Assembly: GCA_000004985.1 (NCBI GenBank)
Contig: GG738846.1
Source of the DNA: Naegleria gruberi
Taxonomy: Eukaryota
Length of the DNA: 64,000 bases
Strand: one strand, 5' to 3'
The notes under the pieces were generated by a model. The model did no database searches, was not told the origin of the DNA, and worked only from the letters and a program-made list of their open reading frames with translations. A program made the translations under genes and the position numbers. Position 1 is the first letter of the stretch. Each line of letters starts with the position of its first letter. Positions 26,101 to 48,685 of the stretch are shown one piece after another.

Positions 26101-29100
26101 TCAATTGAACAATAGTCAATATGGCAATGATCGTGAAAGGAAGTAAACTGACATTCTTGTATTGGTACTTGTATAGACCAATGCTCTTTGGGGTAAGATA
26201 TCCGTAATATGAAGGAATTTCAATTGACTTGTCCAATTCATGTTCTCTGATAAGTTGCTTTGCTCTTTCAACTTCTGGCAAGATACTTTGAATGTAGGCG
26301 TACAGGGATGGGAATTGATAAGCATACTCTACAACAAATACCAAAGTAGAATAGAAAACAAAGACGTACCACAAGCCAACAAAGAATTGGAATAATCTGT
26401 AACCAGCTTTTGTGGAATTTGAATTGTGAACTGAGAGAACATTTAAACAGAAACATGCCATAACAATCATTAGGAATATGAATCCAATAAATGATGCTTC
26501 TTCTTGAAGGAAAATTACCAAAAAGACTGCAAAATAACTTGCCAAAGTTCCTAAAAAGTTTAACAATTCAGTTTCTAAAAAGATCTTATCCCAAACAAGA
26601 ATTAATTTTTCAAAGAATGTGTGCAAGTATGGATTCTTTTCTTTTGTAAACATATCCCATTGATCAAAACTAGTATTAACATTCACATTACCAACTGTCT
26701 TTACATTTGAAATATGATATTGAATACTGGTCAATGTTAGAATGAAAATGTGCCAAATAAGTCCTTTCCAAAACACTCCAAAACTACTTGTACTAATTTG
26801 ATTTTCAATTGTAATAAATGATGGATTAAAACCTATAATTTCATACGGTAAATCAACAACTTCAGGTGCGTACCACACATTGAAGAAGTACAAGGCAAGA
26901 ATAACAAATTGACAATATAGAACTAATAAAATCCATGTTTTTCTTGCAAAGGATGGGAAAATGAAATAGACAGCACAAAATATTACTTGGAAAATGTTAA
27001 ATTCACAGTGTGAAAAAGTAACTTACAATAAATAGCATGAAGTAAATCAGCATTTTCAGATGTCAAATCGGCAAAGTAGCAAACAATCAAACTCAAATAG
27101 AAACTGTTTCTCACAAAGAGAATGAGCAATACTTTCCAAATATAGTCAAAGAGTATAATCTTAATAGTTTGTAAAATCAACTTGATCTTAACCCAAACTC
27201 TTTTAGATGTATTTTGTGGTTCACACTCAACCTCTCCCAAATTATTGTCTGCTTCATCATTGATTTTATCCAATTCAGTCATGTCAACATTAGTTGGGTC
27301 TCTAATAGAATCTGAGAATACTGAATCATGAATAGATTGATCACCCATTGCAGGAGACATTATAACATCCAAATCACTATCTTCCTCATTGGTATAATAG
27401 ATGGATCTACGTTTAATATCCATAGAAGTTGATCTGTTACTATTAACAGAATCATTTGGAACAAGGGGAGCTGTATCATCCATTCCATAGTTATTATTGA
27501 TAGAACGTTTGTGGAACCAATATTTTGTAGATTTTAAAAATGCTAAACGTTATTCGAGTATTTGAATAAGAAAACATACCTTTTCGTTGAGAACCAGTCG
27601 AAGCAGCAGCAGTATTACTTGTTGATACTGTTTTTTTATGTCTCTTCAATAGCTTGGATACAGCACTAACTCTTACAGTCAACCCCATAAATAAGGACAA
27701 GATTAATTGACCAAAAATGACTGCAACAAGAACAATAGATCTACCACTATCACTAACATCTGTTAAAAAAGCTCCAACAGTTGTTCCTACAATGGCTCTA
27801 TAGAGAATTCCTTGAAGAGGATAAAACAATACTCCTCCACTTCCAGATGGATTAAATTCTTTTAGTAAAAGTAGTATGTGAAAAATTAAATAAATAATTA
27901 CAATTAAAACATACCATTTGCTGACATTTCTGTGGTTTGTGGAATGTATGATGCAAAATTTGGCATTTGGAAAACATATTGAGCACAAATATAAAGCAAA
28001 CTATAAATGAAACAGAAAGGTAACAGAATTACCATGACCTTATTGGTTTCAAATCTTGGTCCTGGTGATAAAACCATACCAAGATAAAGGAAAAGTAAAT
28101 AGGGAAGTGAACACAAACTTGGAACGGACAAAATGATACAAATCAATGCAATCATCAATGCATAGAGAATGAACTTTTGCAATTGTTCATATAAGAACAT
28201 TCTAAACTTGTAAGATGATTCATAAATGGAATGTACACCACCTGCAATTCCACCCATTGAAGTGTGTTCATCAATTTCTATTAATCTTCTCTCTTCAGAT
28301 TTATAGTACAAATCCTGAAGATATTCCTCAGAGTTTGTATCCAAATCTTCCTTATTAGAAATCATGGTTGGCAAAAGTGTTAAAAACTTTTTAACTTGTC
28401 TTTGTAGTTCTCTTTCTTGTAAAACTTTTGCAATATATTGACAAACAAAGTTACAAGCCAAGATGAATGTAATTAGAACAAATGTGATGAAAACATATCC
28501 AGTGTAGAACTTTTTGAAAAATTCAAATGATTTCAAATTACCATCAATATCAAAAAATCCAGCCATTTTACCATACGGATTTTGTAAAATCATTTTAGAA
28601 AAGTAACCAGTTGAGGAGATTGAATTGGTTTGGAAACGTGTTAAAAAGTAGAAAATGAGCAAGAGTATAGAATAAACTTGTGTAAATATAAATAATCTAA
28701 TGATGAATTGTAATAGTTATGAAAATTATTATAATTATATATTAAATTTAAAATAAACATACCCAATTGAAATAAAAGTCTTCAAGCTACCAAAACTGGC
28801 AAGTGTAATAATTAAAAAACTCAATAATAAATAAGGAATTCCTACAAAACTTGGATAAAAACTTGCAGTAATCATCAAAAAGAGTGCGAATATAATCAAT
28901 TTCAATTCATGAATATTGACATGTTTCTTTTCAGTCTTTTCCTTTGGAGGCATTGATCCAACATGAGTTACTGAAGTTTTCAATTCTTGTACAGAACATG
29001 TCAAGAGCTTTGGATGTTTAGTAAAAACACCAGGTAAATCCCACATGTACATGGTAGCTCCCTTAACTTTAGGAATTGATTCAATTTGTTGTTTCTTCAA

Positions 29101-30630: not shown

Positions 30631-33600
30631 TCAATAATTAGCAGCTGCTGCCATAGAATATGTTGACTGACCATTAGCAAGTGGAATATTCATCATGGAA
30701 CGAGCATATCTAGTTTCTGCCACCTTAATCTTTTGTGATTTTTCATCCTCAACTCTGTATCTCTTCCGACAATACACTGCAATTACAATAAGAATTATCA
30801 CAATAATGCAACAACACACCAACAAGATTGCTCCAACAATTGTAATGGCAACTACTCCTAAAAGAGTCCAATCGAATGAATAGGTGGTTGTTGCTTTCAT
30901 TTGTCCAATCAATATAACATTACCCAACTTGTTACAGGTACAACTAATTGATGTTCCTGTGTAGGCTTTGACACTACAACCAAACACAACTTTCAAAGCC
31001 TGATCATAGTAGGCACAATAAGTTTTCGAATAATTGAATGAATCTGAAATGTTTCTCAATGGGAATGTATAAACAATGGTAGAGTAGTCTACCATATTAT
31101 TATTAATGTTATCTTCTCCAAAATCTAAAGAAATTGAGAATGGTGAAATAACATATGGTGTAATGATAAATCCACTTTCGGTAATGGTCATTCTATCAGC
31201 AATTTTAAAAATGTCCTTTGTTGTCAAAACTGAATAAACAATATTGCTTTTAGAAAAAGCCTTTGGGAAAACATCGCCAATAAATGAAACAGATGAATCT
31301 TCTCCCAAGTCAATTTTGATTCCCTTGTATTGTAATCTTGGTACCTTTGCTGAAACTAATCTAAATGTTGTGGAAATGAATTGGGATGGATCAGTTCCAA
31401 TAATTTTGTTTCTCATTAGGAATCTAGAAGACTTTTTTGCTAGGGCCACAGCAGATATCATATTGTCTTCTTCACCTCTGAATGATCTCCACTCAAAATA
31501 TTTGAACATTGATTCTAAAGAGTAGTGGATCAGTAATTGAACATTTTTTGATGGAATGATTTCTTGAGTTTCAGTCATTCTGGTGAGTGTTTTATCGAGA
31601 AGGGAAATAGTGTTGGATACAACACTTGTTGCCACAGAGGTATAATCTCTCAACATTGAATCAATGGCAACAAGAATCAAATGTAAATGGTAAATGTTTG
31701 GATCTGGGTGCATAATTAGAGCAGTTTTCAAGTCTGACATTAAACTGACCAAATTATCTTGAAGTTCTTTGAAATCGGCAATTTTCATTGAACAATCTGA
31801 TCCATAATATCCTTCAATACATGTACAAACACCTTCACTCACAACACCGTTCATACAAGTAGTTCTATTTGGGTTATTCATATTGGCTGAAATTGACCTC
31901 ACAATAGCACTGGCAGTGTAGAGATTTAAATTCCAATTTCCTTCAGAATTTGAGTAAAGATCAGTCCAAAATGAAACTTTTTCCAAAATATTCTTTTCAA
32001 AAGACATTGGAAGGATGGTCACTTTAGAAGTAATTCCAATTTTGGCCATAGTTTTAGTGTTAACAACATCCAAAAAGAGTGAAAGTTCATTCCCTGCGTA
32101 TGGAGGAGGAAGAACTGCTGAATAAGTCTCTCCCAGGACTGAAAGAGGAATTTTGGTAAATGTCCTTTCTTCCAAGAAACCATAAACTATATCCAGTGTT
32201 TGATTTTTTAAACATGATGAGTCACAAACATAACTAAACTTTGTTTCCATAAAGATACCAGTAGATTGTTGAATTTGGCAAGAACACAGAGTTGGATTCT
32301 TTGCAACTTTGAAAGAATAAGAGGTTGTTGCAAGCCTTCCACTAGAATCTGCAATTGTTACTGCTAACATGTTGTCAGTACCATCTGTTAAAGAATATGC
32401 AGGAAAAATGACAAAATCACTCGTAGAAGGAGTTGAAGATTGATCACTTAACTCGACACCATTCAAAGACCACTTCCTCGATGAGATTGTATCTAACATT
32501 GACTGAGAATAAATTTGGTAGACAAATGCTTCATCTGTTGTTATGGTCGTTCTTTTAGGAACCGTATCTATGACACTGATAACTGGTTTGTCTGAAAGTA
32601 CCATTTCAATAGAAGATGTTGCTGTTCGTGAACCTTTCACAACCATTAAAGTGAGAATGAATGAAGAACTGGTTAAAACAATGTCCTTAGTGAGATCGAA
32701 TGAGGTGGATTGTGTTTTACCATAACTATTCAATGCTGTTTGTAAGGTTGTAGAACATGCTGGATCGCATGACCATGTCCATGTACTACTTTGGGTATTT
32801 AACATATCGGGATCATAATACTCCACTTCAATGTGGGCTGTTGTTGCTGATACCAAATATTGAATTACTCTTAACTGAAGTTCAGGAGAGTAGGTTGTTA
32901 TCTCTAAATCATCATAAAAGTAAAATGATCCATCAAATGCAGGTGTTCCAACTCTAAAGACATACTTTTGATTACCATAAGAGTACAGTCTATTGATTTG
33001 TAAATTAGAATATGTATCTGTTGTAAAATCTACAAAAGGTCCATAAATTTGTTTCCATGAAATTGTAAAATTGTATTCTTGCTTTGCCACGCAGGAATAA
33101 TCCAAGTTGGTAATTTGTTTTCTGAAAATTGTTGGAACGTCTGTGGTGGCGAGAGTTCTATTATTCTTTCCAACAATTTCTATAGCAGGTGGAGGAAAAC
33201 CCAAATTCACAACAGTAATAGTCTTTGGAATACTCAAAACTCCAGTAATAGCATCTTTAACCGTGAGGGTAAGATCGAAGCTTCCATACACTGTAACTTC
33301 TGTGGTTGTAAGGTTGAGAAATGGTGTTGAGTATTGTTTCACATAACTTGTTTTAGTTTTGTGTTGTATAGTCCAAATATAAATAAAAGGATTTCCATAT
33401 GAAGGTGTGCTCATTTCTCCATTAATAACTATAGGTTGGCATTTGTGAAATTCAGTTAATGTATAAGAAAGCATAGCAATAGGTCTTTGTTGTTCAAATT
33501 CACAAAAAGTTCCATTGTAACCATTTTTGCATTGGCATTTATCAGGTTGAAGACAAGATCCCCTCCCATTACAGACATAAGATGTGTTACTATAGAGAGT

Positions 33601-34089
33601 TGAATTGCAATAGTAATATTTACAAGTATATCCAGAATATCCTTCATTACACAAACAATTATTTGGAGAGTTGCACTTTCCAAAACCACTGCACACTGTT
33701 GGGTTATTATAACTCTTACCATAACAAGTTAGAGTACTATTGCAATAGGTTCCAACCCATCCATAAAAACAAGAACAACTTTCATTTTCCACACAATTTC
33801 CATTCCAACATGGAAACGTTAAACAATTAGTCGATGATTGAATTGTTTGATTGTTACTTGTCGGTATTGTACTGTTCACCACACTGGTTTCATTGCTACT
33901 TATTGAATCGTTGGTGTTTTGCACCAATCTCTCCGAATGAAGTATTTTGTTAATTCGTGATGATATATCATTCGTCTGCAGAGTTTTATCTGTCGATGAT
34001 GTAAATGTTGTCTCTAAATTTAGGAGTAAGACTAAGCAAGCGATGATAATAAATAGAAAAGGCTTAATTGTTAGTTGTGATGATTTCAT
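30631..34089 (-). CDS. Type I transmembrane surface protein. It has a signal peptide, N-terminal tenascin-type EGF repeats, a roughly 900-aa Ser/Thr-rich beta-sandwich ectodomain, one TM helix and a short cytoplasmic tail.
   Basis: ATG at 34089 (MKSSQLTIKPFLFIIIACLVLLLNL...). The track start at 34125 is a TTG. EGF signatures include CWNGNCVENESCSCFYGWVGTYC and CNGRGSCLQPDKCQCKNGYNGTFC. The TM helix is LLGVVAITIVGAILLVCCCIIVIILIVIAVY, followed by the tail CRKRYR...AAAANY. Confidence 0.75.
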   Translation of the reverse strand: MKSSQLTIKPFLFIIIACLVLLLNLETTFTSSTDKTLQTNDISSRINKILHSERLVQNTNDSISSNETSVVNSTIPTSNNQTIQSSTNCLTFPCWNGNCVENESCSCFYGWVGTYCNSTLTCYGKSYNNPTVCSGFGKCNSPNNCLCNEGYSGYTCKYYYCNSTLYSNTSYVCNGRGSCLQPDKCQCKNGYNGTFCEFEQQRPIAMLSYTLTEFHKCQPIVINGEMSTPSYGNPFIYIWTIQHKTKTSYVKQYSTPFLNLTTTEVTVYGSFDLTLTVKDAITGVLSIPKTITVVNLGFPPPAIEIVGKNNRTLATTDVPTIFRKQITNLDYSCVAKQEYNFTISWKQIYGPFVDFTTDTYSNLQINRLYSYGNQKYVFRVGTPAFDGSFYFYDDLEITTYSPELQLRVIQYLVSATTAHIEVEYYDPDMLNTQSSTWTWSCDPACSTTLQTALNSYGKTQSTSFDLTKDIVLTSSSFILTLMVVKGSRTATSSIEMVLSDKPVISVIDTVPKRTTITTDEAFVYQIYSQSMLDTISSRKWSLNGVELSDQSSTPSTSDFVIFPAYSLTDGTDNMLAVTIADSSGRLATTSYSFKVAKNPTLCSCQIQQSTGIFMETKFSYVCDSSCLKNQTLDIVYGFLEERTFTKIPLSVLGETYSAVLPPPYAGNELSLFLDVVNTKTMAKIGITSKVTILPMSFEKNILEKVSFWTDLYSNSEGNWNLNLYTASAIVRSISANMNNPNRTTCMNGVVSEGVCTCIEGYYGSDCSMKIADFKELQDNLVSLMSDLKTALIMHPDPNIYHLHLILVAIDSMLRDYTSVATSVVSNTISLLDKTLTRMTETQEIIPSKNVQLLIHYSLESMFKYFEWRSFRGEEDNMISAVALAKKSSRFLMRNKIIGTDPSQFISTTFRLVSAKVPRLQYKGIKIDLGEDSSVSFIGDVFPKAFSKSNIVYSVLTTKDIFKIADRMTITESGFIITPYVISPFSISLDFGEDNINNNMVDYSTIVYTFPLRNISDSFNYSKTYCAYYDQALKVVFGCSVKAYTGTSISCTCNKLGNVILIGQMKATTTYSFDWTLLGVVAITIVGAILLVCCCIIVIILIVIAVYCRKRYRVEDEKSQKIKVAETRYARSMMNIPLANGQSTYSMAAAANY

Positions 34090-34266
34090 TTTTTTAACTG
34101 TTAAACTGCTTTTATAAGCCGCCAATTCCTTGTGCTTTTCTAAGTGGGCTCTGGAACTTTAATTTACAGTTTCTTTTTTTGGACTTGTGAAAGTCCATTA
34201 CAACTTTTACCATTAAGGCAGTAAGGATATATGCACCATTTGAATATTTTCATAATTATTTGTGAA

Positions 34267-34419: not shown

Positions 34420-37400
34420 ATGGTTCAAAACTTGCCATGCCTAACTAAGAGGCAAATACCATCGTCATCTTTTATTCTCACCATGAATTCTCTTGTAATA
34501 CTCCTCTTTTTATTAATTGACATATCACATCAGCAAGAAATCCTTAATTGCCACGGCTTTCTCTCCAATGATACAATGGTCTGCAGTGGACACGGAACGT
34601 GTATAGCCAATAACCATTGCTCATGTAGGCCTGGTTATGGTGGTGAACAGTGTCAAGAAATTTCATGTTTTAACAATTATCCAAGGATGGTTCAATGTAG
34701 TAATCATGGAGAGTGTATTGCCCTCGATACATGTACATGTTACGATTTATATACAGGTCCAAATTGTGAACAATGTAAACAACCATTCCATGAAGGAGAA
34801 CATTGTACTCCCATTCAATGTTTTGGTGTTGAATATTCAGTGAAGAGTGTTTGTTCTGGTAATGGTGATTGCATTGCATCAAATAATTGTTCTTGTCGTG
34901 ATGGTTTTGTTGGTGAGAGATGTGAACAATTCACTTGTTTAAATTCAACTCTGAATAATACAGAATCAAACAATTCAGTGTTGATTCCATGTTCTGGACA
35001 CGGAGAATGTGTCAAAGCCAATAATACATGCAATTGTTATTCGGATGTTTTGTATGGTTTTTGGGCTGGTGCAAATTGTGATTCTTGTAAATCAGGTTAT
35101 GGGGGAACAGAATGTAAGGAACAAGTTTGTTCCTCATTAACAACTTGTAACGGTAGAGGTGAATGTACACAACATAATGAACCAAAGAATAATGTGAAGT
35201 ACTTCTTTGCTGGTTATCAATTAATATCAAGGAGTGCAATTCGTGCTCAAAATTTCAGAAATTTAACATTAGAGGGAAGTATTGCAACTGAAGGAGGTTT
35301 CTCAGTTCAAGTTTTGAGATCAGCATATGGTCAAGTGAATGTAAGAAATGACATTTCAAAAAATATGGTCAACTCTGCTATTTCTCTCTATCAAGAATTT
35401 TCATCTCTTGATTGTGATCAAACCATGCAACAATCCATTCCAAGTGGAGGTTTAAATCTAAAAGCTGGCACTTACTGTTTCCCACAAGGGTTAAATGGAG
35501 GAGGAAAGATTTCTGTTTCTGGAAGTGGAAGAATTGTCTTGATTTTAAAAACCAATTTGAATTATGGCTTCACTGTTGAATATTTAGATGGTGCCACAGT
35601 TGATAATCTATTCTGGGTAGTTGCTATGGGTAGTTCCATTAGTGGTAAATTCTCTGGTAATTTACTGACAGTTGGTCAAATTAATGTTAATAATGCATTC
35701 ATTTCTGGATCAATTATCAATGTAGGATCTTCTGAAATGAACCTCAATGGAGCTTCATTCGGTCCAATCTACTCCCCTCCTGTAGTAGATCCTTGTAAAT
35801 GTTTCGGTAATTATGCTCCTCCATACTGTGAATCATGTAGTGCTGGTTTCTTTGGAGACAATTGTACTCTCTCATGCTCACCAGAAAGGAATTGTAATGG
35901 AAGAGGTCAATGTTCACAAACAGGTTCTTGCTTATGTGGACCAAGATTTTCTGGTGCCTATTGTGAAGTGTGTGCAACAAAATGGATTGGAAAGAATTGT
36001 GACTACTTGATTGGAGACAGAGCCATGTTGAAAATAAGCAAATTGACTATTCAATATGCAAATCCATCCAAATCTACCCAAATAGATTGTTCTTCGATTC
36101 TCCTTGACGAAACTGTAAAAGAATTAGGATCCTCTCCTCAATGTTATTGGGATGACAAGTCAACCAATAGTTTCGTAATTGATTTAGGATTTGGGAATAC
36201 CATATATGCTGGATCCATTCTCAAATTCAAACTTGAAAATGGAAACTCTGCTCTTGTCACTGTCTATACAGATCCAAACTCAACCAACAATCCCCCAACT
36301 CCAATTCTAAAAGTTTCTTCTAAAATCTCAACATGTGCCCGATTAGAATTGGATACCTCATCTTCATATTCTCCAGATAAGAAATCTATTAGTTACAAAT
36401 TTGAGGTGACATCAACTCCAAATGAAAATTCAATGGTAGTTTTGAGAAGGGAATTATCACTCTTTGAAAATCAAGCATTTTTCAATATAGCTGCTTCCAA
36501 ATTAGCTGTTGGATCCTACAGCATCAAACTAACTGTTTCTAGTCCAGTAACTGGAAGTGCTTCAACTCAAGTAACATTCGAAATCATCCCAGTTCCTCCT
36601 CCAATCATTGATATTCCTGGAGGTTTATCTCAATCATTCGTTTATGGATCTGTAGTTGTAATTAATCCTCAAATTAGCGTTGCAGGATGCTCTAATAATG
36701 ATGGTTCCATAATTTACTCTCCTGCCAAATATCAAGATTTTTCCTATAATTGGGAACAAGTTTCAGGAAATGCAACCAAATTTTCACAAGAATCCTATAA
36801 TAGAATTCTTGTCATTTCAAGTCTACAAAATGAAGGAAGTTTCAAATTAAGTGTCTCGTCCTCAACTGGTTATTCTGATCGAGTGACAGTTGAATTGAAA
36901 TTGAAAGAGAGTGAATTGGTTTTGAAAATAAGAAATGGTAATTTCCTCTATGGAAAAGTGAACCAAGCAATGACTGTTGATTTTTCTCAATCCTATGATC
37001 CAACTAAAACTTTGGAGAAGGAGGAATTCTCAATTGTTTGTATTCCTTTGGGAGTTCTTGCTGTTTGTCCAATTTCTGAAATCTATGCCAATGTGAATCA
37101 AGAAAAAATGTTCACAATCGCAGAGAATTCATTGGTTGCAGGTTTGTATCAATTTACCATTTCCTATTCGAAAGGACGTCGTTCCAAGACTGAAACAGTT
37201 GTTGTGGAATTGGCTGAATACGTCTTTTTGAATGTTTTCATCAAGATGGCCACCAATGATTTCCTTCCAACATCTGTTCCTTTGGGAATGAATGTTTCAT
37301 TAGAAGCAGTTTCTCCACCAGATATTAGAAATGAAGTCACCTACATTTGGAGTTCCAGGACGAGTGGATTTACTCTGAATGATCAAACAACAATATCAGG

Positions 37401-37824
37401 AATAACCGGACCATTTTTAACCATTCGTGGTGAAGTACTCCAACCAGATACTTTTTATACCATCAGATTAGACGCGCAGTGGAATAAGTTGAATGGTTTT
37501 TCAGAATATTATCTTGCAATTAATACTCCACCTAAACCAGGTTATTTTACAGTCAATCCATTACAAAGTAAATCTGGTATTGACACTGTGACGCTTTCAT
37601 GTAGTGGATGGTCGGATGATAATACACCACTCTCCTATCAATTCTTTTTCAATGATGCAAAAACTTCAAGTTGGCAAGCATTAACTGGAAAAGTTTCCAC
37701 CAATCAGGTCAATGTAATGTTGCCTCCTGGTTATGGATCTTCTTCTCAATTAACAATTAAGGCAAGAGTTTATGACTCTACAGGTGCATTTAGTGAAATG
37801 CAACAAGTTGTAATGTCCAGTTGA
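34420..37824 (+). CDS. Secreted multi-EGF protein with an embedded ice-binding-like (DUF3494) right-handed beta-helix domain (aa ~255-450, nt ~35185-35780) and a C-terminal GWSD...PLSYQF module. It is a paralogue of the C-terminal part of the 14755 gene. No TM helix or GPI tail is seen, so there may be an undetected 3' exon.
   Basis: The signal peptide is MNSLVILLFLLIDIS (ATG 34420, alternative ATG 34483). About 7 EGF repeats (CSCRPGYGGEQC and similar) are present. The IBP-like block is LKAGTYCFPQGLNGGGKISVSGSGRIVLILKTNLNYGFTVEYLDGATVDNLFWVVAMGSSISGKFSGNLLTVGQINVNNAFISGSIINVGSS. It mirrors the fungal/bacterial IBP consensus L.PG.YKW...DTWIFQI...GGAQAKNI.W.VAGAV......F.G.ILA.T...KTG...NGR.L. 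The C-terminal block is CSGWSDDNTPLSYQFFFNDAKTSSWQALTGK, against CGNGWSDPQSPLKFQFLYLDAASNNWVSLTEK in the 14755 gene. Confidence 0.75.
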   Translation: MVQNLPCLTKRQIPSSSFILTMNSLVILLFLLIDISHQQEILNCHGFLSNDTMVCSGHGTCIANNHCSCRPGYGGEQCQEISCFNNYPRMVQCSNHGECIALDTCTCYDLYTGPNCEQCKQPFHEGEHCTPIQCFGVEYSVKSVCSGNGDCIASNNCSCRDGFVGERCEQFTCLNSTLNNTESNNSVLIPCSGHGECVKANNTCNCYSDVLYGFWAGANCDSCKSGYGGTECKEQVCSSLTTCNGRGECTQHNEPKNNVKYFFAGYQLISRSAIRAQNFRNLTLEGSIATEGGFSVQVLRSAYGQVNVRNDISKNMVNSAISLYQEFSSLDCDQTMQQSIPSGGLNLKAGTYCFPQGLNGGGKISVSGSGRIVLILKTNLNYGFTVEYLDGATVDNLFWVVAMGSSISGKFSGNLLTVGQINVNNAFISGSIINVGSSEMNLNGASFGPIYSPPVVDPCKCFGNYAPPYCESCSAGFFGDNCTLSCSPERNCNGRGQCSQTGSCLCGPRFSGAYCEVCATKWIGKNCDYLIGDRAMLKISKLTIQYANPSKSTQIDCSSILLDETVKELGSSPQCYWDDKSTNSFVIDLGFGNTIYAGSILKFKLENGNSALVTVYTDPNSTNNPPTPILKVSSKISTCARLELDTSSSYSPDKKSISYKFEVTSTPNENSMVVLRRELSLFENQAFFNIAASKLAVGSYSIKLTVSSPVTGSASTQVTFEIIPVPPPIIDIPGGLSQSFVYGSVVVINPQISVAGCSNNDGSIIYSPAKYQDFSYNWEQVSGNATKFSQESYNRILVISSLQNEGSFKLSVSSSTGYSDRVTVELKLKESELVLKIRNGNFLYGKVNQAMTVDFSQSYDPTKTLEKEEFSIVCIPLGVLAVCPISEIYANVNQEKMFTIAENSLVAGLYQFTISYSKGRRSKTETVVVELAEYVFLNVFIKMATNDFLPTSVPLGMNVSLEAVSPPDIRNEVTYIWSSRTSGFTLNDQTTISGITGPFLTIRGEVLQPDTFYTIRLDAQWNKLNGFSEYYLAINTPPKPGYFTVNPLQSKSGIDTVTLSCSGWSDDNTPLSYQFFFNDAKTSSWQALTGKVSTNQVNVMLPPGYGSSSQLTIKARVYDSTGAFSEMQQVVMSS

Positions 37825-38351: not shown

Positions 38352-41111
38352 ATGGGAGGAGGAAATTCAAAACAAAAACTACAAGTGGAAATGACTCTTG
38401 TAGATGATGAATCAAAAATTGATCTTCTCATTGATCATACACCAAATCCTGCAAAGGTTGGAAGCCCCCTTCCTTTCGTTAATAATACTTACACATTGAG
38501 AGCATCCACACCAACCTCAAACCTTCCACCAGAACCTACCATAACAATCAGCACAACAAATTCTCTCACCACTGATCTTAAACCGTACCTGCCCAAACAA
38601 AATTCCAAAAAGAATACTAACCCAAGAACTAACAAAACCAATAGTAACCCTTCCGAATCTAATTTACTTCCTAAAATTACACAACAACGTCAATCTTTTG
38701 ATGCTTCTATGCTTCAATCTGGGAGAAACTCTCCTGCTGGTGAATCTTCAACTATAGTAACTAATAATCGAGCAAAATCAAAATCAAACTCTAGGGTTGT
38801 GGATGTTCCTTCTCCGTCTGTAAACAATAACTTGTCACCAGCAGTTACTTTGGATGACAGATCAACCCTACTAACAGGATACAAGACACATAGTACTCAA
38901 TCACTAATGTCCTCAACTAGTATCAAAGATAGTGAACTATTGAATTTTCATGGAGATGTCTGTATTGAAAATAAGGCTCATCTAGTGAGCTTGGTAATTA
39001 GCAATATGGACGATATGGTTTTTATAATAACTGATTTGAAAAATAATTATTACATTTATGAAACTTCATACCCGAGGTTTTTACAGAAATTCTTTTCTGG
39101 TGAAGAAAGCGCAGCCTCCCTTCCACCCTATAAGAGGCATAGAAGAATGCTCGATATGATTGGTCTGGCATTCTCATTTCAAACCTACAGTGTTATTCCT
39201 GAGTCGGCCGATAACAATATCAAAATATCCCTTACCTTGAAATATCAAGCTGACAATATTGACAAGACAGTAGTGTTCAAGCTGATAAAGCATGTTCCAG
39301 ATTTAACTGATCCATCTAATAGGCTGATACACTCCACTATTTGTAAATTAATTATTGGTCTGTTTGGAAGTTATCACAATTCGAGAAAAGACAAAACAAA
39401 TATCCTAAGACAAACAATTCCAACCATGGCACTTATCACGGAAGTTGGAACAAATGCACAACAAGAAGATGAAGAGGAGGAAGAGGAACCTGAATACAGT
39501 TTGAGATCAGATAAATCTGAAGATGATCTAGTAAATCTTAAAGAAACCAAAAGAGAAGAAAAATCAAAAATGGATGAACCACCAAAACTCTCATTTTCGA
39601 TGGAACAGTCAGGAGAACAAGAAGAATCCAAGGTTATCAAAGTTAAAAAATTAGGTGTAAAACCAGCTAAAAAGTTTGTCACTGTCACAATTGATGAAGA
39701 GCCAGACTTGATTACCACTACAGAAATGGTAGTCTTTTTGAGAAAGCTACAAGCACTTCTATCTTTAAGAGATGATATTCCCTTCGATAAGAATAAGTTT
39801 TCTCTCATCATTAAAACCATAGCTAAGAATTCAGATATTGTTGAGGACGAAATTAAGGATACAAATCCTGATCTAGAAGTTTCAGCCTTCTTGAACGCAT
39901 TTGTAAAGCCTAGAGCAAAATCAAGGGAAAGGGCTGGGTGGAGAACAATTGCAAATCTCATTAGAGTTGGTGTTGTTTTCAAGCAACAAACTCTTCAAAC
40001 AACTGTCAAGAATATTAATGCAATCGATAGTAACCCTGGATTGGAAGAGAAATTGAAGAGTATAGATCGATATGACTTTGATGTGTTTGAATTAAATGAA
40101 GCATCGAGGGGAAAGCCACTGTATGTGATATTTACCTATTACCTTCGTCGATTTGGATTGTTGGAACATTTCAATATTGACAGAGAAGTCTTGCATGCAT
40201 TCCTTAGAGAGATTGAAACTCACTATGGGTACAATGCCTTCCACAATAGCATTCATGCTGCTGACGTACTTCAAACATTCATGTACCTATTAGATTTGAT
40301 AGGTATGATTCCGTTCCTTACTCATGAGGAATTGTTGGCTGTCATATTGGCAGCTGCCATGCACGATTTTCAACATCCAGGAACAACAAATCAATTCCAA
40401 ATCCTTTCATCCTCTGATTTGGCCATTACTTATAGTGACAAGTCAGTATTAGAGAGCCACCATGTTGCCTCCTTCTACAGAGTCCTCCAACAAGAGAAAT
40501 ACAACATTCTGAAAACACTATCAGCCAAACAAAGAAGGCAAATCAGAGAAATTTCAATTGGTCTGATATCAGCAACGGATTTATCATTCCAAGGAAGTTT
40601 TATGAATCAATTACAAGCAGTTTATGATGTTTCACATGGTCACATTGATTTAATGTCTGAAAAGTCTCTAGTTCTAAAACTTTGCCTCAAATTGGCCGAC
40701 ACTGCAAATACCTCAAAACCTCTCTATCTGCACTTTTCCTGGATCTCTCGGCTACAAAGAGAATTCTTCATCCAAGGCGATAAGGAAAAAGAGTTGGGTA
40801 TGGATGTTAGCCCTTTCATGGACAGAACCAAGTGCAACTTTACAAAATGTCAAAATTCTTTTATTGAATATGTGACCTATCCGTATGTGGCTTTATTCGC
40901 AAAATGCTTTAAAGAAGCAGCTCCAATACTGGAATATTCAAAACAAGTCAAAGAATATTGGTCGAATAGTGTGGTAGTTAGTACATTCGAGGAAGTTGAA
41001 CAAATGATTAGAAATGAGCTTGCAAAGGTTAATAAGGTTGTGACGCAGTCACATTTGGGAGCAAACACGTCATTCAACACGACACCAAGAGAACAAGGGA
41101 CAGAAGAATAA
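38352..41111 (+). CDS. Class I 3',5'-cyclic-nucleotide phosphodiesterase with a long Ser/Thr/Asn-rich N-terminal region and an N-myristoylation motif
   Basis: The start is MGGGNSKQ (MGxxxS). The C-terminal catalytic domain has YNAFHNSIHAADVLQT and HDFQHPGTTNQFQI (the PDEase_I HD signature HDxxHxGxxN), plus SVLESHHVASFYRVL. Confidence 0.8.
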   Translation: MGGGNSKQKLQVEMTLVDDESKIDLLIDHTPNPAKVGSPLPFVNNTYTLRASTPTSNLPPEPTITISTTNSLTTDLKPYLPKQNSKKNTNPRTNKTNSNPSESNLLPKITQQRQSFDASMLQSGRNSPAGESSTIVTNNRAKSKSNSRVVDVPSPSVNNNLSPAVTLDDRSTLLTGYKTHSTQSLMSSTSIKDSELLNFHGDVCIENKAHLVSLVISNMDDMVFIITDLKNNYYIYETSYPRFLQKFFSGEESAASLPPYKRHRRMLDMIGLAFSFQTYSVIPESADNNIKISLTLKYQADNIDKTVVFKLIKHVPDLTDPSNRLIHSTICKLIIGLFGSYHNSRKDKTNILRQTIPTMALITEVGTNAQQEDEEEEEEPEYSLRSDKSEDDLVNLKETKREEKSKMDEPPKLSFSMEQSGEQEESKVIKVKKLGVKPAKKFVTVTIDEEPDLITTTEMVVFLRKLQALLSLRDDIPFDKNKFSLIIKTIAKNSDIVEDEIKDTNPDLEVSAFLNAFVKPRAKSRERAGWRTIANLIRVGVVFKQQTLQTTVKNINAIDSNPGLEEKLKSIDRYDFDVFELNEASRGKPLYVIFTYYLRRFGLLEHFNIDREVLHAFLREIETHYGYNAFHNSIHAADVLQTFMYLLDLIGMIPFLTHEELLAVILAAAMHDFQHPGTTNQFQILSSSDLAITYSDKSVLESHHVASFYRVLQQEKYNILKTLSAKQRRQIREISIGLISATDLSFQGSFMNQLQAVYDVSHGHIDLMSEKSLVLKLCLKLADTANTSKPLYLHFSWISRLQREFFIQGDKEKELGMDVSPFMDRTKCNFTKCQNSFIEYVTYPYVALFAKCFKEAAPILEYSKQVKEYWSNSVVVSTFEEVEQMIRNELAKVNKVVTQSHLGANTSFNTTPREQGTEE

Positions 41112-42798: not shown

Positions 42799-44262
42799 TT
42801 ATTTCAAATTAGAACTAAAATGAACATATTTTGCTTTGGCTGATGACTTGCTCTTGATGGATTCATTTTGGGTCCTGTGATTTGATCTTTGTTGAACATT
42901 AGAACACCAATACATGTTCATAATCTTATTACCACTTGTGAGGTATACATCTTTGGTACGCATCTCATTCAAACATTCTCTCAATTCATTGATTAAGTTT
43001 TGACAATACTGATCATTTGAAGTAATACTCATAGTAATGGTATTGATCGCTGTGTTAATAATTAATCGAGCAGCATCAAGTTGATTGGAATCGGCTAAGG
43101 CCTTTGCTTTCTGTAATGCTTCAGTTTGTAGGAGTCTATTCTTTTGGAGGTCTATTAAACGATTATCTGTTAAATTGCCACCAACTGTCATTTCACCTCT
43201 TGTAATATGGGTGATACATTGAAGAGCTTCCTTTTCAATCTTTTCGATATTCATGTATTCTAATTGAATATCTAATAATTGTTGCTTTTCAATTCCACAA
43301 GATTCTGCCAACAATTCCAATTCAAACAAAATATCTCTATTTTCTTCATAGTATAAATCTTTCAATTTGATATGAATCTCCTTATTAGGAAGTATTATTT
43401 CTTGCTTTACAAATCCATATTCTGAATTTAAAATTCTCTTCAGCAATACTCGATCTGAAATGCATTTGAATTTGAGTACAATATTTTGGGCAAATACAGA
43501 GATTAAACCTCCCAAACAATCTGAAAATGCTTGGGGAATTTCATCTTCTGATTTAATGTAATAGTACAAGCCTCCTCCAACTTTACAAATCTCTGTCAAA
43601 CAATTTGCCGAATGTTCCTCTCCAAAACCAAAAGTAAATACACTAGTATTATTTGAATTGATTGACATGTTTGAAAATGAATTAATTAAATTATTGACGT
43701 TTGTTTGACTTGAAAAACTAGTATTTTGCAAATTCAACTTGGTATATAATTTTTCTACAATATTTACAATCTTATCTTGTTGTTGCACACCAACAGTTGG
43801 TAATCCATCAGTGAAAAGTAGAATTGATGTTGTAGGAGAAATATTACCTCCTCTATTTGCCAATATATCAAAGGCTTCAATAATGGCTCCACTAATATTA
43901 GTAGTTGTACCCAACTTGATATTATTTACACAATTCATTGCTTGTTTCTTACCACCATTATCCATAGAGGTCAACTTTAAAGTGGTTGAAACGTTTGCAT
44001 CAAATTCAACAATTCCTAGCCTGTCTCTTGCTTGCATCTGATCAATCATGAATAATAATGACTTTTTAACCAACTCAATCTTATCACTCATAGAACCAGA
44101 TTTATCAAGGACAGCAATTATATCCAAGCTCGATCTATTCTCCTTCTCAACATATATTGGAGCTTTAATAGATGCCATACCAAACATATTTTGTGTTTGA
44201 TTATATTTGACCTGATCATATTCAAAGGTACAACTGAAAGAAACGCTTGGTGGAATGAGCAT
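42799..44262 (-). CDS. von Willebrand factor type A (VWA) domain protein with a roughly 280-aa C-terminal extension
   Basis: A MIDAS motif is present in DIIAVLDKSGSMSDKIELVKKSLLFMIDQMQARDRLGIVEFDANV...TNISGAIIEAF. The first ATG is about 44262; the track start at 44319 is a GTG. Confidence 0.65.
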   Translation of the reverse strand: MLIPPSVSFSCTFEYDQVKYNQTQNMFGMASIKAPIYVEKENRSSLDIIAVLDKSGSMSDKIELVKKSLLFMIDQMQARDRLGIVEFDANVSTTLKLTSMDNGGKKQAMNCVNNIKLGTTTNISGAIIEAFDILANRGGNISPTTSILLFTDGLPTVGVQQQDKIVNIVEKLYTKLNLQNTSFSSQTNVNNLINSFSNMSINSNNTSVFTFGFGEEHSANCLTEICKVGGGLYYYIKSEDEIPQAFSDCLGGLISVFAQNIVLKFKCISDRVLLKRILNSEYGFVKQEIILPNKEIHIKLKDLYYEENRDILFELELLAESCGIEKQQLLDIQLEYMNIEKIEKEALQCITHITRGEMTVGGNLTDNRLIDLQKNRLLQTEALQKAKALADSNQLDAARLIINTAINTITMSITSNDQYCQNLINELRECLNEMRTKDVYLTSGNKIMNMYWCSNVQQRSNHRTQNESIKSKSSAKAKYVHFSSNLK

Positions 44263-44580
44263 TATTAATTTATTCTTTTTTTTTGATTTTGAAAAACTCA
44301 GCAGAACTGTTAACAACACTTCAATGATTATTAATAGGTACTAAGTACCAAGTTCCATCAACCAGAAAATATACCTTATTCCAAGCAAGGTTTTGTTCTG
44401 TTTGATTGGAATTTTATTGGAGAGAATTATTTGGCAATCTGTTGGATTTCTTAGGAAAAATATATTCAGCGGCTGAGGGTGATGGGAAATTCTTATTCAA
44501 GTATCTGGACTTGTCGTAAAAAAAACTCAATCATCTTCTTCGTTGAAAACTTGAAACACCAAGTCTCTTGGTGTTGGTCT

Positions 44581-46059: not shown

Positions 46060-48685
46060 TCAGTTTAGAACCTTATTTAAATCCAAGCATTTATGAAGAA
46101 GGTAAAGAGCTACTTTGTCCTCTTCATAATACTTCTCTTGATAGGAAGACTGATGGAACTGAAATAGATCAATTGCTTCATCAAGGTCTCCTTCAAAAAA
46201 TTTGGCACATGCTTGGTTGTGGTGTTCCCAAGAATCTTTGAGACCACTGCTTGACTGTCTCCATTCTTCAGAATCTTCCATAGAGGTAGTTTCTCCTACC
46301 TGATACAACCTCGTTGGAAAACTTACTCTATCTTGTTTTGGTGAAATAATTGGAGAATTACCTTCATCATCTGCAAGCAGCTTTTTTTCTCCCACAAATC
46401 TGAAATTGTAACTATCCTTATTCTTTTCAAAAATTGACTCTGAAACAATGAGAGAAATTTCCAATTTGCTTGCATGCTTAATCAACAGCTGTAAATTGTG
46501 TAAATAACTTCCAAATATTGCATAATTCTTAATTTGAGAAGTCCCAACGTTACCACAAACACAGTGTTGTGAAAGTAACGAGCCTCTAAATGTAAACTTT
46601 AAATTTTGAATATGCGAATTCTTCCACTTCTTATCTCGAGTTGCTTTTAACCTTCTCAATATTTGATAAACAGAAAAAGTTGCTGACTCTTCATGTGAAC
46701 TCGATTCAATGATAGAATTCCAAGTAATAGTTATGTAATTATTCTCAAAGCTTCCTATTTGCCCATTGGTGGCTTGCGCAGTTTTCTGTATGATAACAAA
46801 ACAGTCATTGAGAACAGAAACAGTCTCATCAAAATCAAGAGCTGACAAGAAGTGATCCAAACCTTCAAAATAAATCATACCACTTGTTACTCTTCTCTTT
46901 TCCAATCCTAGACAAAACAATCGTTCTAGTTTTGGAGTAGTAGCTGCTGCATCTCTTGTTATCACAGATATTTGACCATTTACACTTCCTGAGGTCGATG
47001 TCAAAGAGTGTTGTCTTTCCAAGATCATTCTTCCTATTGTTGACTTTCTTAAATTGACTTCCATATCTAGCTTTTGAAGAATATGTGGCGGAAGGAATGC
47101 TCTGTAATTTTTCAGCCTTGTCAACATGGTTTGGAAATGCTTTTGTAAAATGTTGACCTCTGCCAATGATGACGGCCTCATCTGGATGTCTTCAAGTCTC
47201 ATGTTTGAAATTGATTCGAATACTGTTGTCAATTGTTGAAATGGGCGGAAGAGAGAAATGCTCGACACGACCCCCATCACTGCACCCACAATGGCAATAA
47301 TCAAACTTGACAGAATACCAACAATCAAGGCAATAAATAACTGACCAACATAGTCCCATTTTGGAACATTTAGCACTAGCAGCCAATCCACTCCTGCCTT
47401 ACAAAACCTATTCATGCAAATAACACTGTCTTCATTTGTAAAAAACTGGTACTCTCCACATTTGAGAGATTTCAAGTTATTATTCATAGAAGTGTAGATT
47501 AATTTGGAAACAGATCGTATCTTGGGTTGTTCAAAAGTTAGGGCAGTCATTCTTGTCTCTGTTCTATCTTGATTGAATTTAGAAACTGGTATATCAGGAA
47601 AACTTGCTATTATTGTTACATTTGAGGATTTCATTATACCACTACTTACAAACAACAATATAATTCGTCTCTATTTCAATAGCAAAAGCTACAGAGCCGC
47701 TTATAGCTTCAGTGACTGATTCAATGTAATTTGAAATTGACGATACACTGATATCAATTCCAAAATACCAATCATATGGTAGTTTTGAGCTATTGTCAGG
47801 ATGTGAATTGACACAACTCATAAATGTTATAGAAGGTAACGTTGGGTCAGTGTAAGACCTCGAAAATTGAGGCTTATTGGGGGAATTATTTGCAACACCC
47901 ATGATTTTAGACATATCAAATGGTCCCAGTATGACATCAGGAACATCCTTATTCTTGTAGTCACAAAATCCCTTATTTAAAAAATCATCACAATACCAAT
48001 AATATTGTCCAGTCTCATTAATTAACATTTGAGTTGGTTTTCCTCCTAATACTAACACTCCCAAATTCCCTCCCAGAGTGTCTCTTGGAAAAGTTTCTTT
48101 TAAATTGAAATGTTTCTGAAAAACTTACCCAAAATAAACAGTCACCATTAAGGTTGATAAATACGTAAATGCACTCTTATAAATCCTATATGTCAAAGAG
48201 TAGGCATTCTCAGTATTGTTATAATTAAAATCCTCCCACATTATATTCTTTGTTGTATCTGAAACAACTAGAACCTTATCAATGGTTTCATCGGTGAAAT
48301 TTACAACTTTTTCAATTTGTTGCCTTAATACATCCTGACTAAATTTTGAAACACTCGAACTAAAACAAGAAATCCATATTGTAGTGAGTAATAGAGAAGT
48401 AACAATTACTAAAGAGACCATAATTACTATTAAAACACACTTGATGGAGTATACAGTCCTCGTCTCTCCATTTCCTCCCTCATAATTTCCACCACTATTA
48501 TTATTATTATTATTATTATTATTATCCTGAATATATATTGAGGAAACTTTTTCATCATTCCCAGTTTCATTCCTAGAGGAATAACTTGCTTGCTCTTCCG
48601 ATGTATTAAATTTAATGCTAGCAATGTTGGGCAGTGAATCACGGTCATCATACGCAAGAACCTTATTATTTCTCATGTAATACAT
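46060..48685 (-). CDS. Receptor-type class III nucleotidyl-cyclase homology protein (ACG-like topology). It has a cytoplasmic poly-N N-terminus and a first TM helix. A roughly 330-aa extracellular sensor-like domain follows, then a second TM helix and an intracellular cyclase homology domain with degenerate catalytic residues. Three exons: 48685-48129, 48083-47650 and 47606-46060.
   Basis: The introns are 45 and 43 nt (GTAAGT...AG) and preserve the frame. The TM helices are VLIVIMVSLVIVTSLLLTTIWI and LFIALIVGILSSLIIAIVGAVMGVV. The CHD blocks are VTSGMIYFEGLDHF (compare VTILFSDIVGFT), IGSFENNYITITWN (compare IGDAYM, second metal Asp replaced by Ser) and FRGSLLSQHCVCGNVGTSQIKNYAIFGSYLHNLQLL (compare RIGIHTGPVVAGVVG...YDIWGDTVN). 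Confidence 0.6.

What the first reader, a model, noticed from the sequence alone, without database searches (positions are those of the whole stretch)
46060..48685. Receptor-type cyclase with a sensor ectodomain but a catalytically degenerate cyclase homology domain
The topology is TM, a roughly 330-aa extracellular domain, a second TM and a class III cyclase homology domain, as in osmosensing ACG-type adenylyl cyclases. However, the second metal-binding Asp (GD to GS) and the transition-state Arg appear substituted. It may be a pseudo-cyclase that needs a heterodimer partner, or a repurposed sensor. Both introns are unusually small (45 and 43 nt).
Basis: inference. Interest (0 to 1): 0.55.

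Follow-up and report, generated by a model that had tools for sequence, protein, structure and literature searches.

The report
Receptor with a dead cyclase domain
This Naegleria gruberi gene encodes a membrane receptor with a bacterial-type double-Cache sensor outside the cell and, inside, a domain that has the fold of a cAMP/cGMP-making cyclase but none of its catalytic residues; it belongs to a large, conserved and apparently undescribed family of such "pseudo-cyclase" receptors in Naegleria and related protists.

Summary
The gene is real. It lies on the minus strand at 48685-46060, with three exons and GTAAGT..AG introns of 45 and 43 nt. My model is identical to the annotated Naegleria gruberi "predicted protein" XP_002682882.1 (NAEGRDRAFT_61920, 845 aa).

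Domain order:
- disordered N-terminus
- TM1
- TM2
- HAMP-like helix-connector-helix
- cyclase-transducer-element motif (YRAFLPPHIL)
- about 27-aa disordered segment
- TPR-like C-terminal helices

Pfam finds no cyclase domain in this protein alone. A family profile hits solved cyclases at E = 4e-24.

All seven canonical active-site positions are substituted:
- metal Asp to Y576 and N620
- substrate Lys to S616
- substrate Asp/Thr to S697
- phosphate Arg to I689
- transition-state Asn to H700
- transition-state Arg to L704

This is a family trait. Of 128 related domains, one has the full catalytic set, and the former catalytic columns rank among the least conserved.

Because both halves of the active site are missing, a partner cannot restore activity. 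I read it as a ligand-sensing receptor pseudo-cyclase with a non-enzymatic output. It is a new variant of a known kind.

The parts
46060..48685 (-). Whole gene NAEGRDRAFT_61920 (start codon to stop codon), 3 exons, 845 aa
   Evidence: ORFs and splice model. Product is identical to XP_002682882.1.
48084..48128 (-). Intron 1, 45 nt, GTAAGT...AG, phase 2
   Evidence: Its removal restores the block VTVYFG|DTLGGN, which is conserved in the N. lovaniensis homologue P0002.
47607..47649 (-). Intron 2, 43 nt, GTAAGT...AG, phase 1
   Evidence: Its removal restores IVVSSFPDIPVS, which is conserved in P0002.
48440..48685 (-). Cytoplasmic N-terminal tail (residues 1-82), disordered, with a poly-Asn run
   Evidence: pLDDT is below 50 for residues 1-77. 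Sequence.
48365..48439 (-). Transmembrane helix 1 (residues about 83-107)
   Evidence: Hydropathy window scores up to 2.9. It is part of the long helix 81-149 in the model.
47344..48364 (-). Extracellular double-Cache (dCache) sensor domain (residues 108-418; the span includes both introns)
47254..47343 (-). Transmembrane helix 2 (residues about 419-448)
   Evidence: Hydropathy. It runs on into the continuous helix 413-464 in the model.
47113..47253 (-). HAMP-like helix-connector-helix (residues 449-495), with invariant P452 and E480
   Evidence: Model helices 413-464 and 479-499 are separated by a 14-residue connector. P and E are invariant in 24 relatives. The only sequence support is a weak match to the NarQ HAMP region, E 0.24. 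Pfam HAMP is not hit.
47011..47112 (-). Cyclase-transducer-element-like segment (residues 496-529), motif Y498-R499-A-F-L-P503-P-H-I-L507
   Evidence: Family consensus is YRxFIPxHLL, with P503 invariant and F501, H505 and L507 at 90% or more. The canonical relative P0122 has KKFVPVKVL at the same place. The CTE concept and its FGRY motif with a conserved Arg come from PMC5995499.
46930..47010 (-). Disordered insertion between the transducer element and the cyclase-like domain (residues 530-556)
   Evidence: pLDDT is below 50 for 518-556. The distance from P503 to strand β1 is 67 residues here and 53-115 in 57 of the 58 other degenerate relatives (one is truncated and lacks the motif), against 23 in the one canonical relative.
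46288..46929 (-). Class III cyclase-homology fold without catalytic residues (residues 557-770): Y576, S616, N620, I689, S697, H700, L704
46063..46287 (-). Conserved C-terminal module (residues 771-845): acidic 'EEW' motif (family consensus DEWMYEL) followed by a TPR-like helical bundle
   Evidence: The model has four helices at pLDDT above 90. Family consensus is DEWMYEL..W..Y..A, with the Trp nearly invariant. There are weak TPR-type hits in relatives and a hit to a designed PPR protein at E 3e-5.

Best explanation
NAEGRDRAFT_61920 is a two-pass membrane receptor whose output domain is a pseudo-enzyme.

Shown:
- An extracellular dCache sensor sits between two TM helices.
- The cytoplasmic part keeps the wiring of a HAMP-type receptor cyclase: a HAMP-like module, the YRxFxPxHxL transducer motif, a CHD fold with its β4-β5 hairpin, and a TPR-like tail.
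- Every residue that binds the two metals, selects the purine, or stabilises the transition state is replaced.
- The same holds for almost the whole family.

Inferred mechanism:
- A small-molecule ligand binds the dCache domain of a homodimer.
- The signal passes through TM2 and the HAMP-like/transducer coiled coil.
- The signal does not switch cNMP synthesis. It changes the arrangement or accessibility of the dimeric CHD-like scaffold and its conserved C-terminal DEWMYEL/TPR-like module.
- That module recruits or releases a cytoplasmic partner.
- The disordered insert between transducer and CHD, about 50 residues longer than in a canonical cyclase, is a flexible tether that may be regulated, for example by phosphorylation. 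It replaces the rigid coupling that active cyclases need.

The protein makes no cAMP or cGMP, either alone or with a partner.
For: Gene and product:
- The model is identical to the annotated protein.

Folds:
- Foldseek TM 0.84 to CyaB.
- AlphaFold pLDDT 87 for exon 3 and 81 for the full length.

Homology:
- The family profile hits CyaB at E 3.8e-24, Cya2 at 1e-20 and OaPAC at 2e-18.
- Pfam Guanylate_cyc is found in 25 of 60 relatives.

Catalytic loss:
- Two independent alignments, MAFFT against the canonical Willaertia relative P0122 and HMM against CyaB/OaPAC, agree on Y576, S616, N620, I689, S697, H700 and L704.
- The positions fit the model's secondary structure: end of β1, the β2-β3 turn, and the N-cap and first turns of α4.

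Family-wide pattern:
- 127 of 128 domains lack the full set, and Asp1 is present in only 3.
- The seven former catalytic columns rank 94th to 177th of 180 in conservation. G682, N683, G685, N627, H635, K690, G696 and R733 are near-invariant.

Maintained, not decaying:
- The ORF is intact in a second strain at 98.9% DNA identity, with 4 synonymous and 3 non-synonymous changes, none in the CHD core.
- Homologues at about 40% identity exist in N. lovaniensis, and relatives exist in N. fowleri, Willaertia, a euglenid and MMETSP transcriptomes.

Linker:
- The insertion accompanies catalytic loss.
Against: - No activity, binding or expression data exist. Loss of catalysis is inferred from sequence and a predicted structure.
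- The output mechanism (scaffold plus TPR-like tail) is inference only. No partner is known.
- K/R690 (next to the lost phosphate-binding Arg), N701 (next to the lost Asn) and an acidic residue at 618 are fairly conserved, so some nucleotide or metal binding cannot be excluded.
- The linker/catalysis correlation rests on a single canonical relative within the sampled set.
- The strain comparison has only 7 substitutions, so pN/pS of 0.2 is not statistically meaningful.
Confidence: 0.7

Rival explanations
1. Modulatory or dominant-negative partner. The pseudo-CHD heterodimerises with the CHD of a catalytically competent receptor cyclase. Because each class III active site is built from both subunits, this silences or tunes that enzyme in response to its own ligand.
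For: The β4-β5 dimerisation hairpin and its GNxG....K.F motif are among the most conserved parts of the domain. Canonical relatives with the same ectodomain and C-terminal tail exist in the sister genus (P0122). N. gruberi is reported to have many cyclases, including one recognised Cache-cyclase (PMC9928731; PMC4822843).
Against: dCache/HAMP receptors dimerise along their whole length, so heterodimers are most plausible between close paralogues. All sampled close paralogues are themselves degenerate. The large, diversified family, with its own conserved tail, argues for an output of its own. No partner is encoded in this window.
Confidence: 0.15
2. Nucleotide receptor. The former active-site cleft still binds ATP, GTP or a cyclic nucleotide without turning it over, so that the domain works as an allosteric sensor. 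Precedents are degenerate GGDEF domains and the P. aeruginosa class III cyclase-like ATP-binding protein.
Against: The pocket positions that contact base, metals and phosphates are among the most variable columns of the family (ranks 94-177 of 180). That is not expected for a conserved ligand site. The γ-phosphate Lys region is replaced by a low-confidence loop.
Confidence: 0.1
3. Unconventional but active nucleotidyl cyclase, or another enzyme, that uses a different set of catalytic residues.
For: The fold, the dimer arm and the transducer motif are retained. Some family members keep Asp at the second metal position (40 of 128).
Against: Both metal ligands are absent here (Y576, N620). No replacement acidic pair is conserved across the family, and the transition-state Asn and Arg are gone. 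Two-metal chemistry without carboxylate ligands has no precedent in this fold (established knowledge of class III cyclases).
Confidence: 0.04
4. Decaying gene copy: a recently inactivated cyclase on its way to becoming a pseudogene.
For: Catalytic residues are lost. Pfam does not recognise the domain.
Against: The 845-codon reading frame is intact, with correct splice sites, and is also intact in a second strain. Homologues are conserved across at least three Naegleria species and Willaertia, with the same non-catalytic motifs. The predicted fold is of high confidence.
Confidence: 0.01

Closest known systems
Bacterial-type receptor class III adenylyl/guanylyl cyclases with extracellular sensor, HAMP/transducer element and a class IIIb CHD (e.g. 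P. aeruginosa CyaB, Synechocystis Cya2; the protist TM-Cache1-HAMP-cyclase subfamily described in the Euglena genome paper, PMC6366073)
   Different: All catalytic residues are replaced. About 50 extra disordered residues separate the transducer element from the CHD. Pfam's cyclase model does not recognise this protein.
Willaertia magna KAL9648894.1 (P0122), a canonical member of the same receptor lineage
   Same: It has a homologous ectodomain (profile match over positions 25-327), the same transducer motif, and a related C-terminal helical tail.
   Different: P0122 keeps the full catalytic set D-K-D-R-D-N-R and has a short 23-residue link from the transducer Pro to β1. The window protein has Y-S-N-I-S-H-L and 67 residues.
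Pseudo-symmetric heterodimeric cyclases (mammalian membrane AC C1/C2; soluble guanylyl cyclase alpha/beta)
   Same: They contain a degenerate, non-catalytic site within a CHD dimer.
   Different: In those enzymes each subunit keeps the complementary half of one working site. Here both halves are lost from the same polypeptide, so no working site can be assembled (the requirement itself is established knowledge of class III cyclases).
Non-catalytic cyclase-like domains in bacteria: A. baumannii AdvA (bioRxiv 10.64898/2026.04.03.716176; PDB 7sua) and the P. aeruginosa class III cyclase-like ATP-binding protein (PDB 6yii)
Bacterial dCache chemoreceptor and kinase sensor domains (PctD, PctA, Mlp24, Tlp3, DctB)
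   Different: Sequence identity is only 9-15%. The ectodomain carries cysteines that are identical in the N. lovaniensis homologue, which suggests disulfides. Pfam dCache_1 does not recognise it. The ligand is unknown.

Membership tests
Class III nucleotidyl cyclase (catalytically competent) | Cyclase-homology-domain fold (βαββαβ core with β4-β5 dimerisation hairpin) | tested here: met
Class III nucleotidyl cyclase (catalytically competent) | Match to Pfam Guanylate_cyc (PF00211) above the gathering score | tested here: not met
   There is no hit even at E up to 10 for this protein. 25 of 60 relatives do match, best E 7e-20. The family profile hits PDB cyclases at E 3.8e-24.
Class III nucleotidyl cyclase (catalytically competent) | Two metal-binding aspartates (F-x-D-I-x-G-F-T and K-x-x-G-D) | tested here: not met
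   They are Y576 and N620.
Class III nucleotidyl cyclase (catalytically competent) | Substrate-specifying pair (Lys + Asp/Thr for ATP; Glu + Cys/Ser-type for GTP) | tested here: not met
   The first position is S616, which is neither Lys nor Glu. The second is S697.
Class III nucleotidyl cyclase (catalytically competent) | Transition-state Asn and Arg on helix α4 (G-D-x-V-N-x-A-x-R) | tested here: not met
   They are H700 and L704. The phosphate-binding Arg is I689.
Class III nucleotidyl cyclase (catalytically competent) | cAMP or cGMP synthesis | not testable with these tools
   This needs an enzyme assay.
Class IIIa/b cyclases with a cyclase transducer element | Conserved helical element with an R-containing motif directly preceding the CHD | tested here: inconclusive
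   The motif Y498-R499-A-F-L-P503-P-H-I-L is present and conserved across the family. It sits 67 residues before β1, against 23 in the canonical relative, with a disordered stretch in between. The motif definition is from PMC5995499.
dCache_1 extracellular sensor domain | Double PAS-like modules on a long N-terminal helix, located between two TM helices | tested here: met
dCache_1 extracellular sensor domain | Match to Pfam dCache_1 (PF02743) | tested here: not met
   There is no hit for this protein. 6 of 60 relatives match, best E 4.7e-12.
dCache_1 extracellular sensor domain | Known ligand-binding motif (e.g. amino-acid or amine motif in the membrane-distal module) | not tested
   No reference sequences or structural superposition output were available to map pocket residues.
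HAMP domain | About 50-residue helix-connector-helix after the last TM, with conserved Pro at the start of helix 1 and Glu at the start of helix 2; Pfam PF00672 match | tested here: inconclusive
   The helix-connector-helix is seen in the model. P452 and E480 are invariant and 28 residues apart. There is only a weak hit to the NarQ HAMP region, E 0.24. There is no Pfam HAMP hit in the protein or in 60 relatives.
Heterodimer-dependent (C1/C2-type) cyclase subunit | Retains one complete complementary half-site (either both metal Asp, or Lys/Asp + Asn/Arg) | tested here: not met
   Neither half is retained.
Dictyostelium ACG-type osmosensing adenylyl cyclase | Sequence relationship to ACG and an active CHD | not tested
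The catalytic-competence part fails, as shown above.

The most novel reading that the evidence does not exclude
The window gene represents a previously unrecognised class of eukaryotic signalling receptor: ligand-gated 'receptor pseudo-cyclases' of the form dCache-HAMP-like-CTE-dead CHD-TPR-like. The family has expanded in Heterolobosea and occurs in other Discoba. In these proteins the cyclase fold has been converted from an enzyme into a regulated protein-interaction or ligand-binding module. This parallels receptor pseudokinases. It would also mean that published counts of Naegleria 'cyclases' mix real enzymes with non-enzymes, and that Cache-type receptors in Naegleria are far more numerous than the single one reported.
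Probability: 0.5. Interest if true: 0.7.

Novelty: new variant of a known kind. Interest (0 to 1): 0.55.

Why it matters
Naegleria is reported to carry one of the largest cyclase repertoires of any eukaryote: at least 81 across the genus (PMC9928731). That repertoire is taken as evidence for elaborate cAMP/cGMP-based environmental sensing.

If a sizeable, conserved branch of these receptor 'cyclases' cannot make cyclic nucleotides, three things follow:
- The signalling map of these amoebae, including the pathogen N. fowleri, which has family members, needs revising.
- Automatic labels such as 'guanylate cyclase domain-containing protein' and 'adenylate/guanylate cyclase', which are applied to degenerate members, are misleading.
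- The cyclase fold joins kinases and phosphatases as a scaffold that evolution repeatedly turns into a receptor pseudo-enzyme.

The family also shows that dCache sensors, reported in only one Naegleria protein (PMC4822843), are present there in divergent form in several more proteins.

Tried and rejected
Searches that were unproductive or blocked:
- The first word-indexed homologue search with the full protein returned only 2 hits.
- A second search with a trimmed 17-sequence CHD alignment also returned only 2 hits. The exhaustive HMMER search was the productive route.
- The spliced protein could not be submitted to the exhaustive search. I used exon translations plus the N. lovaniensis homologue instead.
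- A Pfam scan of 76 relatives exceeded the size limit, so I reran it with 60.
- AFDB Foldseek was unavailable. The taxonomic spread therefore rests on 30 cluster look-ups.
- The HAMP test by profile against the PDB was weak, with NarQ at E 0.24, and is left as inconclusive.
- Literature searches for pseudo-cyclases, inactive CHD families or Naegleria cyclases found no description of this family. Only bacterial non-catalytic cyclase-like proteins turned up. PMC2447327 had nothing on inactive cyclases in the text held.

Ideas considered and rejected:
- E578 or D581 as a shifted first metal ligand. That register breaks the conserved G579-L580 match to the canonical G-F, and the canonical relative P0122 also has Glu at the E578-equivalent position.
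- N701 as a displaced transition-state Asn. Even if it were, the Arg four residues on (L705) is still missing.
- A pseudogene (see rivals).
- A partner cyclase within the window. None was found. The only cyclic-nucleotide gene nearby is a phosphodiesterase.
Full report
**Observation**

The finding lies on the minus strand. Reading 48685 down to 46060 gives three open segments joined by two GTAAGT...AG introns of 45 nt (48128-48084) and 43 nt (47649-47607). The spliced product is 845 aa. It is letter-for-letter identical to Naegleria gruberi XP_002682882.1 / EFC50138.1 / UniProt D2UZF7 (NAEGRDRAFT_61920, 'predicted protein'). Two neighbouring ORFs also match N. gruberi proteins exactly, so the window is N. 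gruberi NEG-M. Both splice junctions fall inside blocks conserved in the N. lovaniensis homologue P0002 (41% identity over 90% of the length), which supports the model independently.

A crude scan for donor/acceptor pairs that join long open frames finds ten candidate introns of 34-124 nt in this window. Introns of 43-45 nt are therefore normal for this genome rather than unusual.

**Architecture**

Hydropathy gives two strong TM segments, at 83-107 and 419-448.

AlphaFold2 models were built with family alignments. Exon 3 alone reached pLDDT 87.4 and the full length 81.1. They predict:
- a disordered N-terminus (1-77)
- a long TM1/stalk helix
- an α/β ectodomain at pLDDT around 90 or higher
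- TM2 running into a helix-connector-helix
- a further helix (504-529)
- a disordered stretch (518-556, pLDDT below 50)
- a compact α/β domain (563-770)
- four C-terminal helices

At the sequence level, Pfam finds nothing in this protein even at E up to 10. A single-sequence search of the PDB gives only marginal cyclase hits at E about 0.2. The homology becomes unambiguous through the family.

**The family**

An exhaustive HMMER search of 1.84 billion cluster representatives, using a profile of the window exons plus P0002, found 1630 proteins at E up to 1e-3, 296 at up to 1e-10, and 94 at up to 1e-30. The weaker part of that list may include ordinary cyclases; I only examined the best 150.

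A 60-member alignment hits solved cyclases at E 3.8e-24 (CyaB), 1e-20 (Cya2) and 2e-18 (OaPAC). It hits dCache sensor structures at E 4e-7 to 7e-4. Scanned one by one, 25 of the 60 members reach Pfam Guanylate_cyc and 6 reach dCache_1. A few carry NIT or N-terminal ankyrin repeats instead.

Thirty cluster look-ups place members in:
- N. gruberi: at least six paralogues (NAEGRDRAFT_61920, 47650, 65846, 68321, 65007 and XP_002673367)
- N. lovaniensis
- N. fowleri
- Willaertia magna
- the euglenid Entosiphon
- MMETSP transcriptomes and unassigned metagenome contigs

.

**Catalytic residues**

One sampled relative, W. magna KAL9648894 (P0122), has the same kind of ectodomain and tail together with a textbook class IIIb catalytic domain (FLDIENFT, KYIGD, GNIGSKERFSFSVIGDGVNFASRLE).

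Aligning the window protein to it by MAFFT, and separately to CyaB and OaPAC through HMMER, gives the same register:

| Canonical role | Residue in this protein |
|---|---|
| Metal Asp 1 | Y576 |
| Substrate Lys | S616 |
| Metal Asp 2 | N620 |
| Phosphate Arg | I689 |
| Substrate Asp/Thr | S697 |
| Transition-state Asn | H700 |
| Transition-state Arg | L704 |

These positions fall where they should in the model. Y576 is the third-from-last residue of β1, N620 is in the β2-β3 turn, and S697/H700/L704 are at the N-cap and first turns of α4.

The loss is total rather than partial.

I aligned all CHD-like domains among the 150 best relatives to a family HMM. Only P0122 of 128 has the full set, and Asp1 survives in 3. 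In column-entropy terms the seven former catalytic positions rank 94th to 177th of 180. The most conserved columns are G682, G685, R733, N683, N627, G696, H635, L565 and K690, which I take to be structural or hairpin residues. In working cyclases the catalytic positions are the most conserved ones. Here selection has abandoned them and kept the fold.

**Other derived features**

The segment after TM2 has the HAMP layout and an invariant Pro...Glu pair 28 residues apart. Sequence support is weak, with NarQ HAMP at E 0.24 and no Pfam HAMP hit. I call it HAMP-like.

It is followed by Y498-R499-A-F-L-P503-P-H-I-L. The family consensus here is YRxFIPxHLL, with P503 invariant and F501, H505 and L507 conserved in at least 90% of members. 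This corresponds to the cyclase transducer element and its conserved Arg, as described for Cya2 and other class III cyclases (PMC5995499).

In the canonical relative, 23 residues separate the motif's Pro from strand β1. In the window protein the distance is 67. In 57 of the 58 other degenerate relatives it is 53-115, with a median of 72 over all 60 aligned sequences (one degenerate relative is truncated and lacks the motif). Part of that stretch is predicted to be disordered. The rigid helix-to-CHD coupling that regulates real cyclases therefore appears to have been replaced by a flexible tether. This contrast rests on one canonical sequence in my sample.

The C-terminal 75 residues form a strongly conserved module. 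The family consensus is DEWMYEL..W..Y..A, and the module folds as TPR-like helices. Some relatives give weak TPR-type matches.

**Is it maintained?**

A metagenome contig from another N. gruberi strain is 98.9% identical in DNA over 5.66 kb and keeps the frame. Exon 3 differs by 4 synonymous and 3 non-synonymous changes, giving pN/pS of about 0.2, and none falls in the CHD core. These counts are too small for statistics. Together with homologues in three Naegleria species and Willaertia, and a confidently predicted fold, they rule out a decaying pseudogene.

**Mechanism**

What is shown: a dCache sensor outside the cell, receptor-cyclase wiring inside, and no catalytic apparatus.

What follows from established knowledge: each class III active site is formed across the dimer interface, with the two Asp coming from one subunit and Lys, Asp/Thr, Asn and Arg from the other. 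A subunit lacking both sets cannot contribute to any working site. The 'needs a heterodimer partner' idea therefore fails as a route to activity. If this protein paired with an active cyclase it could only inhibit it.

I consider such pairing less likely than a homodimeric receptor with its own output. This is an inference from three points. These receptors dimerise along their whole length. All sampled close paralogues are themselves degenerate. The family also keeps a conserved C-terminal module.

My best explanation is a ligand-gated receptor pseudo-cyclase whose CHD-like dimer and TPR-like tail act as a regulated interaction scaffold. Residual nucleotide binding cannot be excluded, because K/R690, N683 and E/D618 persist, and I list it as a rival.

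**Comparison with what is known**

- The TM-Cache-HAMP-cyclase architecture is known in protists and has been linked to N. gruberi genes (PMC6366073).
- Cache was reported in a single Naegleria protein (PMC4822843). The present family shows further, divergent dCache ectodomains.
- My literature searches found no description of a eukaryotic receptor family with a dead CHD.
- Database names for members range from 'predicted protein' to 'Guanylate cyclase domain-containing protein' and 'adenylate/guanylate cyclase'. The last of these is applied to a degenerate member.

**Verdict**

It is a new variant of a known kind, and a family-level phenomenon rather than a single odd gene. Interest is moderate to good at 0.55. 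A cyclase specialist would probably be surprised by a large conserved clade of receptor pseudo-cyclases, and the hypothesis is directly testable. Everything here is computational, however, and the output mechanism is inferred.

Noticed in passing
window 38352-41111 (+): This 919-aa single-exon ORF has a strong class I 3',5'-cyclic-nucleotide phosphodiesterase domain (PDEase_I, E 4.6e-70). It lies about 5 kb from the pseudo-cyclase gene. There is no evidence of a functional link.
   Followed up: partly
window 20153-26893 (-): This long ORF of at least 2246 aa carries Piezo cap, anchor and transmembrane-helical-unit domains (E 1e-62 to 2e-68). It is a Piezo-type mechanosensitive channel homologue in Naegleria. 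Candidate short introns lie just upstream, at 26986-27914.
   Followed up: partly
window 14755-20049 (+), 30631-34125 (-), 34420-37824 (+): These are three very large secreted or membrane proteins with EGF-like repeats. I scanned two of them against Pfam: both have EGF/teneurin-type repeats and 34420-37824 also has a REJ domain. The third (14755-20049, not scanned) opens with a long run of near-identical 'NPSTPGGNNST'-type repeats and coincides with a local GC rise to 0.41-0.42 at 16-20 kb.
   Followed up: partly
window 42799-44319 (-): This ORF has a VWA domain plus a CPSF6-like RSLD region. The same gene sits next to the pseudo-cyclase on the second-strain contig L001, so the local gene order is conserved.
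   Followed up: partly
L001 (ENA ERZ929261 metagenome contig, 9388 bp), locus positions 1-5657: An environmental metagenome contig is 98.9% identical to window 42.1-47.7 kb. It presumably comes from a second N. gruberi strain. Its automatic gene call starts at an in-frame Met inside intron 2, giving a truncated 524-aa product (P0001).
   Followed up: yes
family members P0014 (N. gruberi XP_002673367), P0003/P0006/P0010 (N. lovaniensis), P0052 (N. fowleri): Relatives with degenerate catalytic patterns (for example LHDVNWK and HNNVSHI) are labelled 'adenylate/guanylate cyclase' or 'Guanylate cyclase domain-containing protein' in public databases. The labels probably overstate their function.
   Followed up: partly
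family members P0139 (Entosiphon sulcatum) and P0124, P0126, P0131, P0132, P0141, P0145, P0151: A more distant branch keeps a 'GD' at the second metal position, and P0139 keeps both metal Asp, while lacking Lys, Asn and Arg. This is a C1-like half-site pattern. In that branch, complementation by a partner might still be possible.
   Followed up: no
family members P0051, P0065, P0088, P0095, P0100 and others (about 1150-1265 aa, metagenomic): A subgroup carries a long N-terminal cytoplasmic extension ahead of the same TM-dCache-TM-pseudo-CHD core. In the members I scanned (P0051, P0065) it contains ankyrin repeats. This points to a protein-interaction role for the family.
   Followed up: no
window 48497-48523 (-), residues 55-63: The disordered N-terminal tail contains a run of nine Asn, encoded by AAT repeats. 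I suspect this low-complexity run crowded the candidate list of the first word-indexed homologue search.
   Followed up: yes
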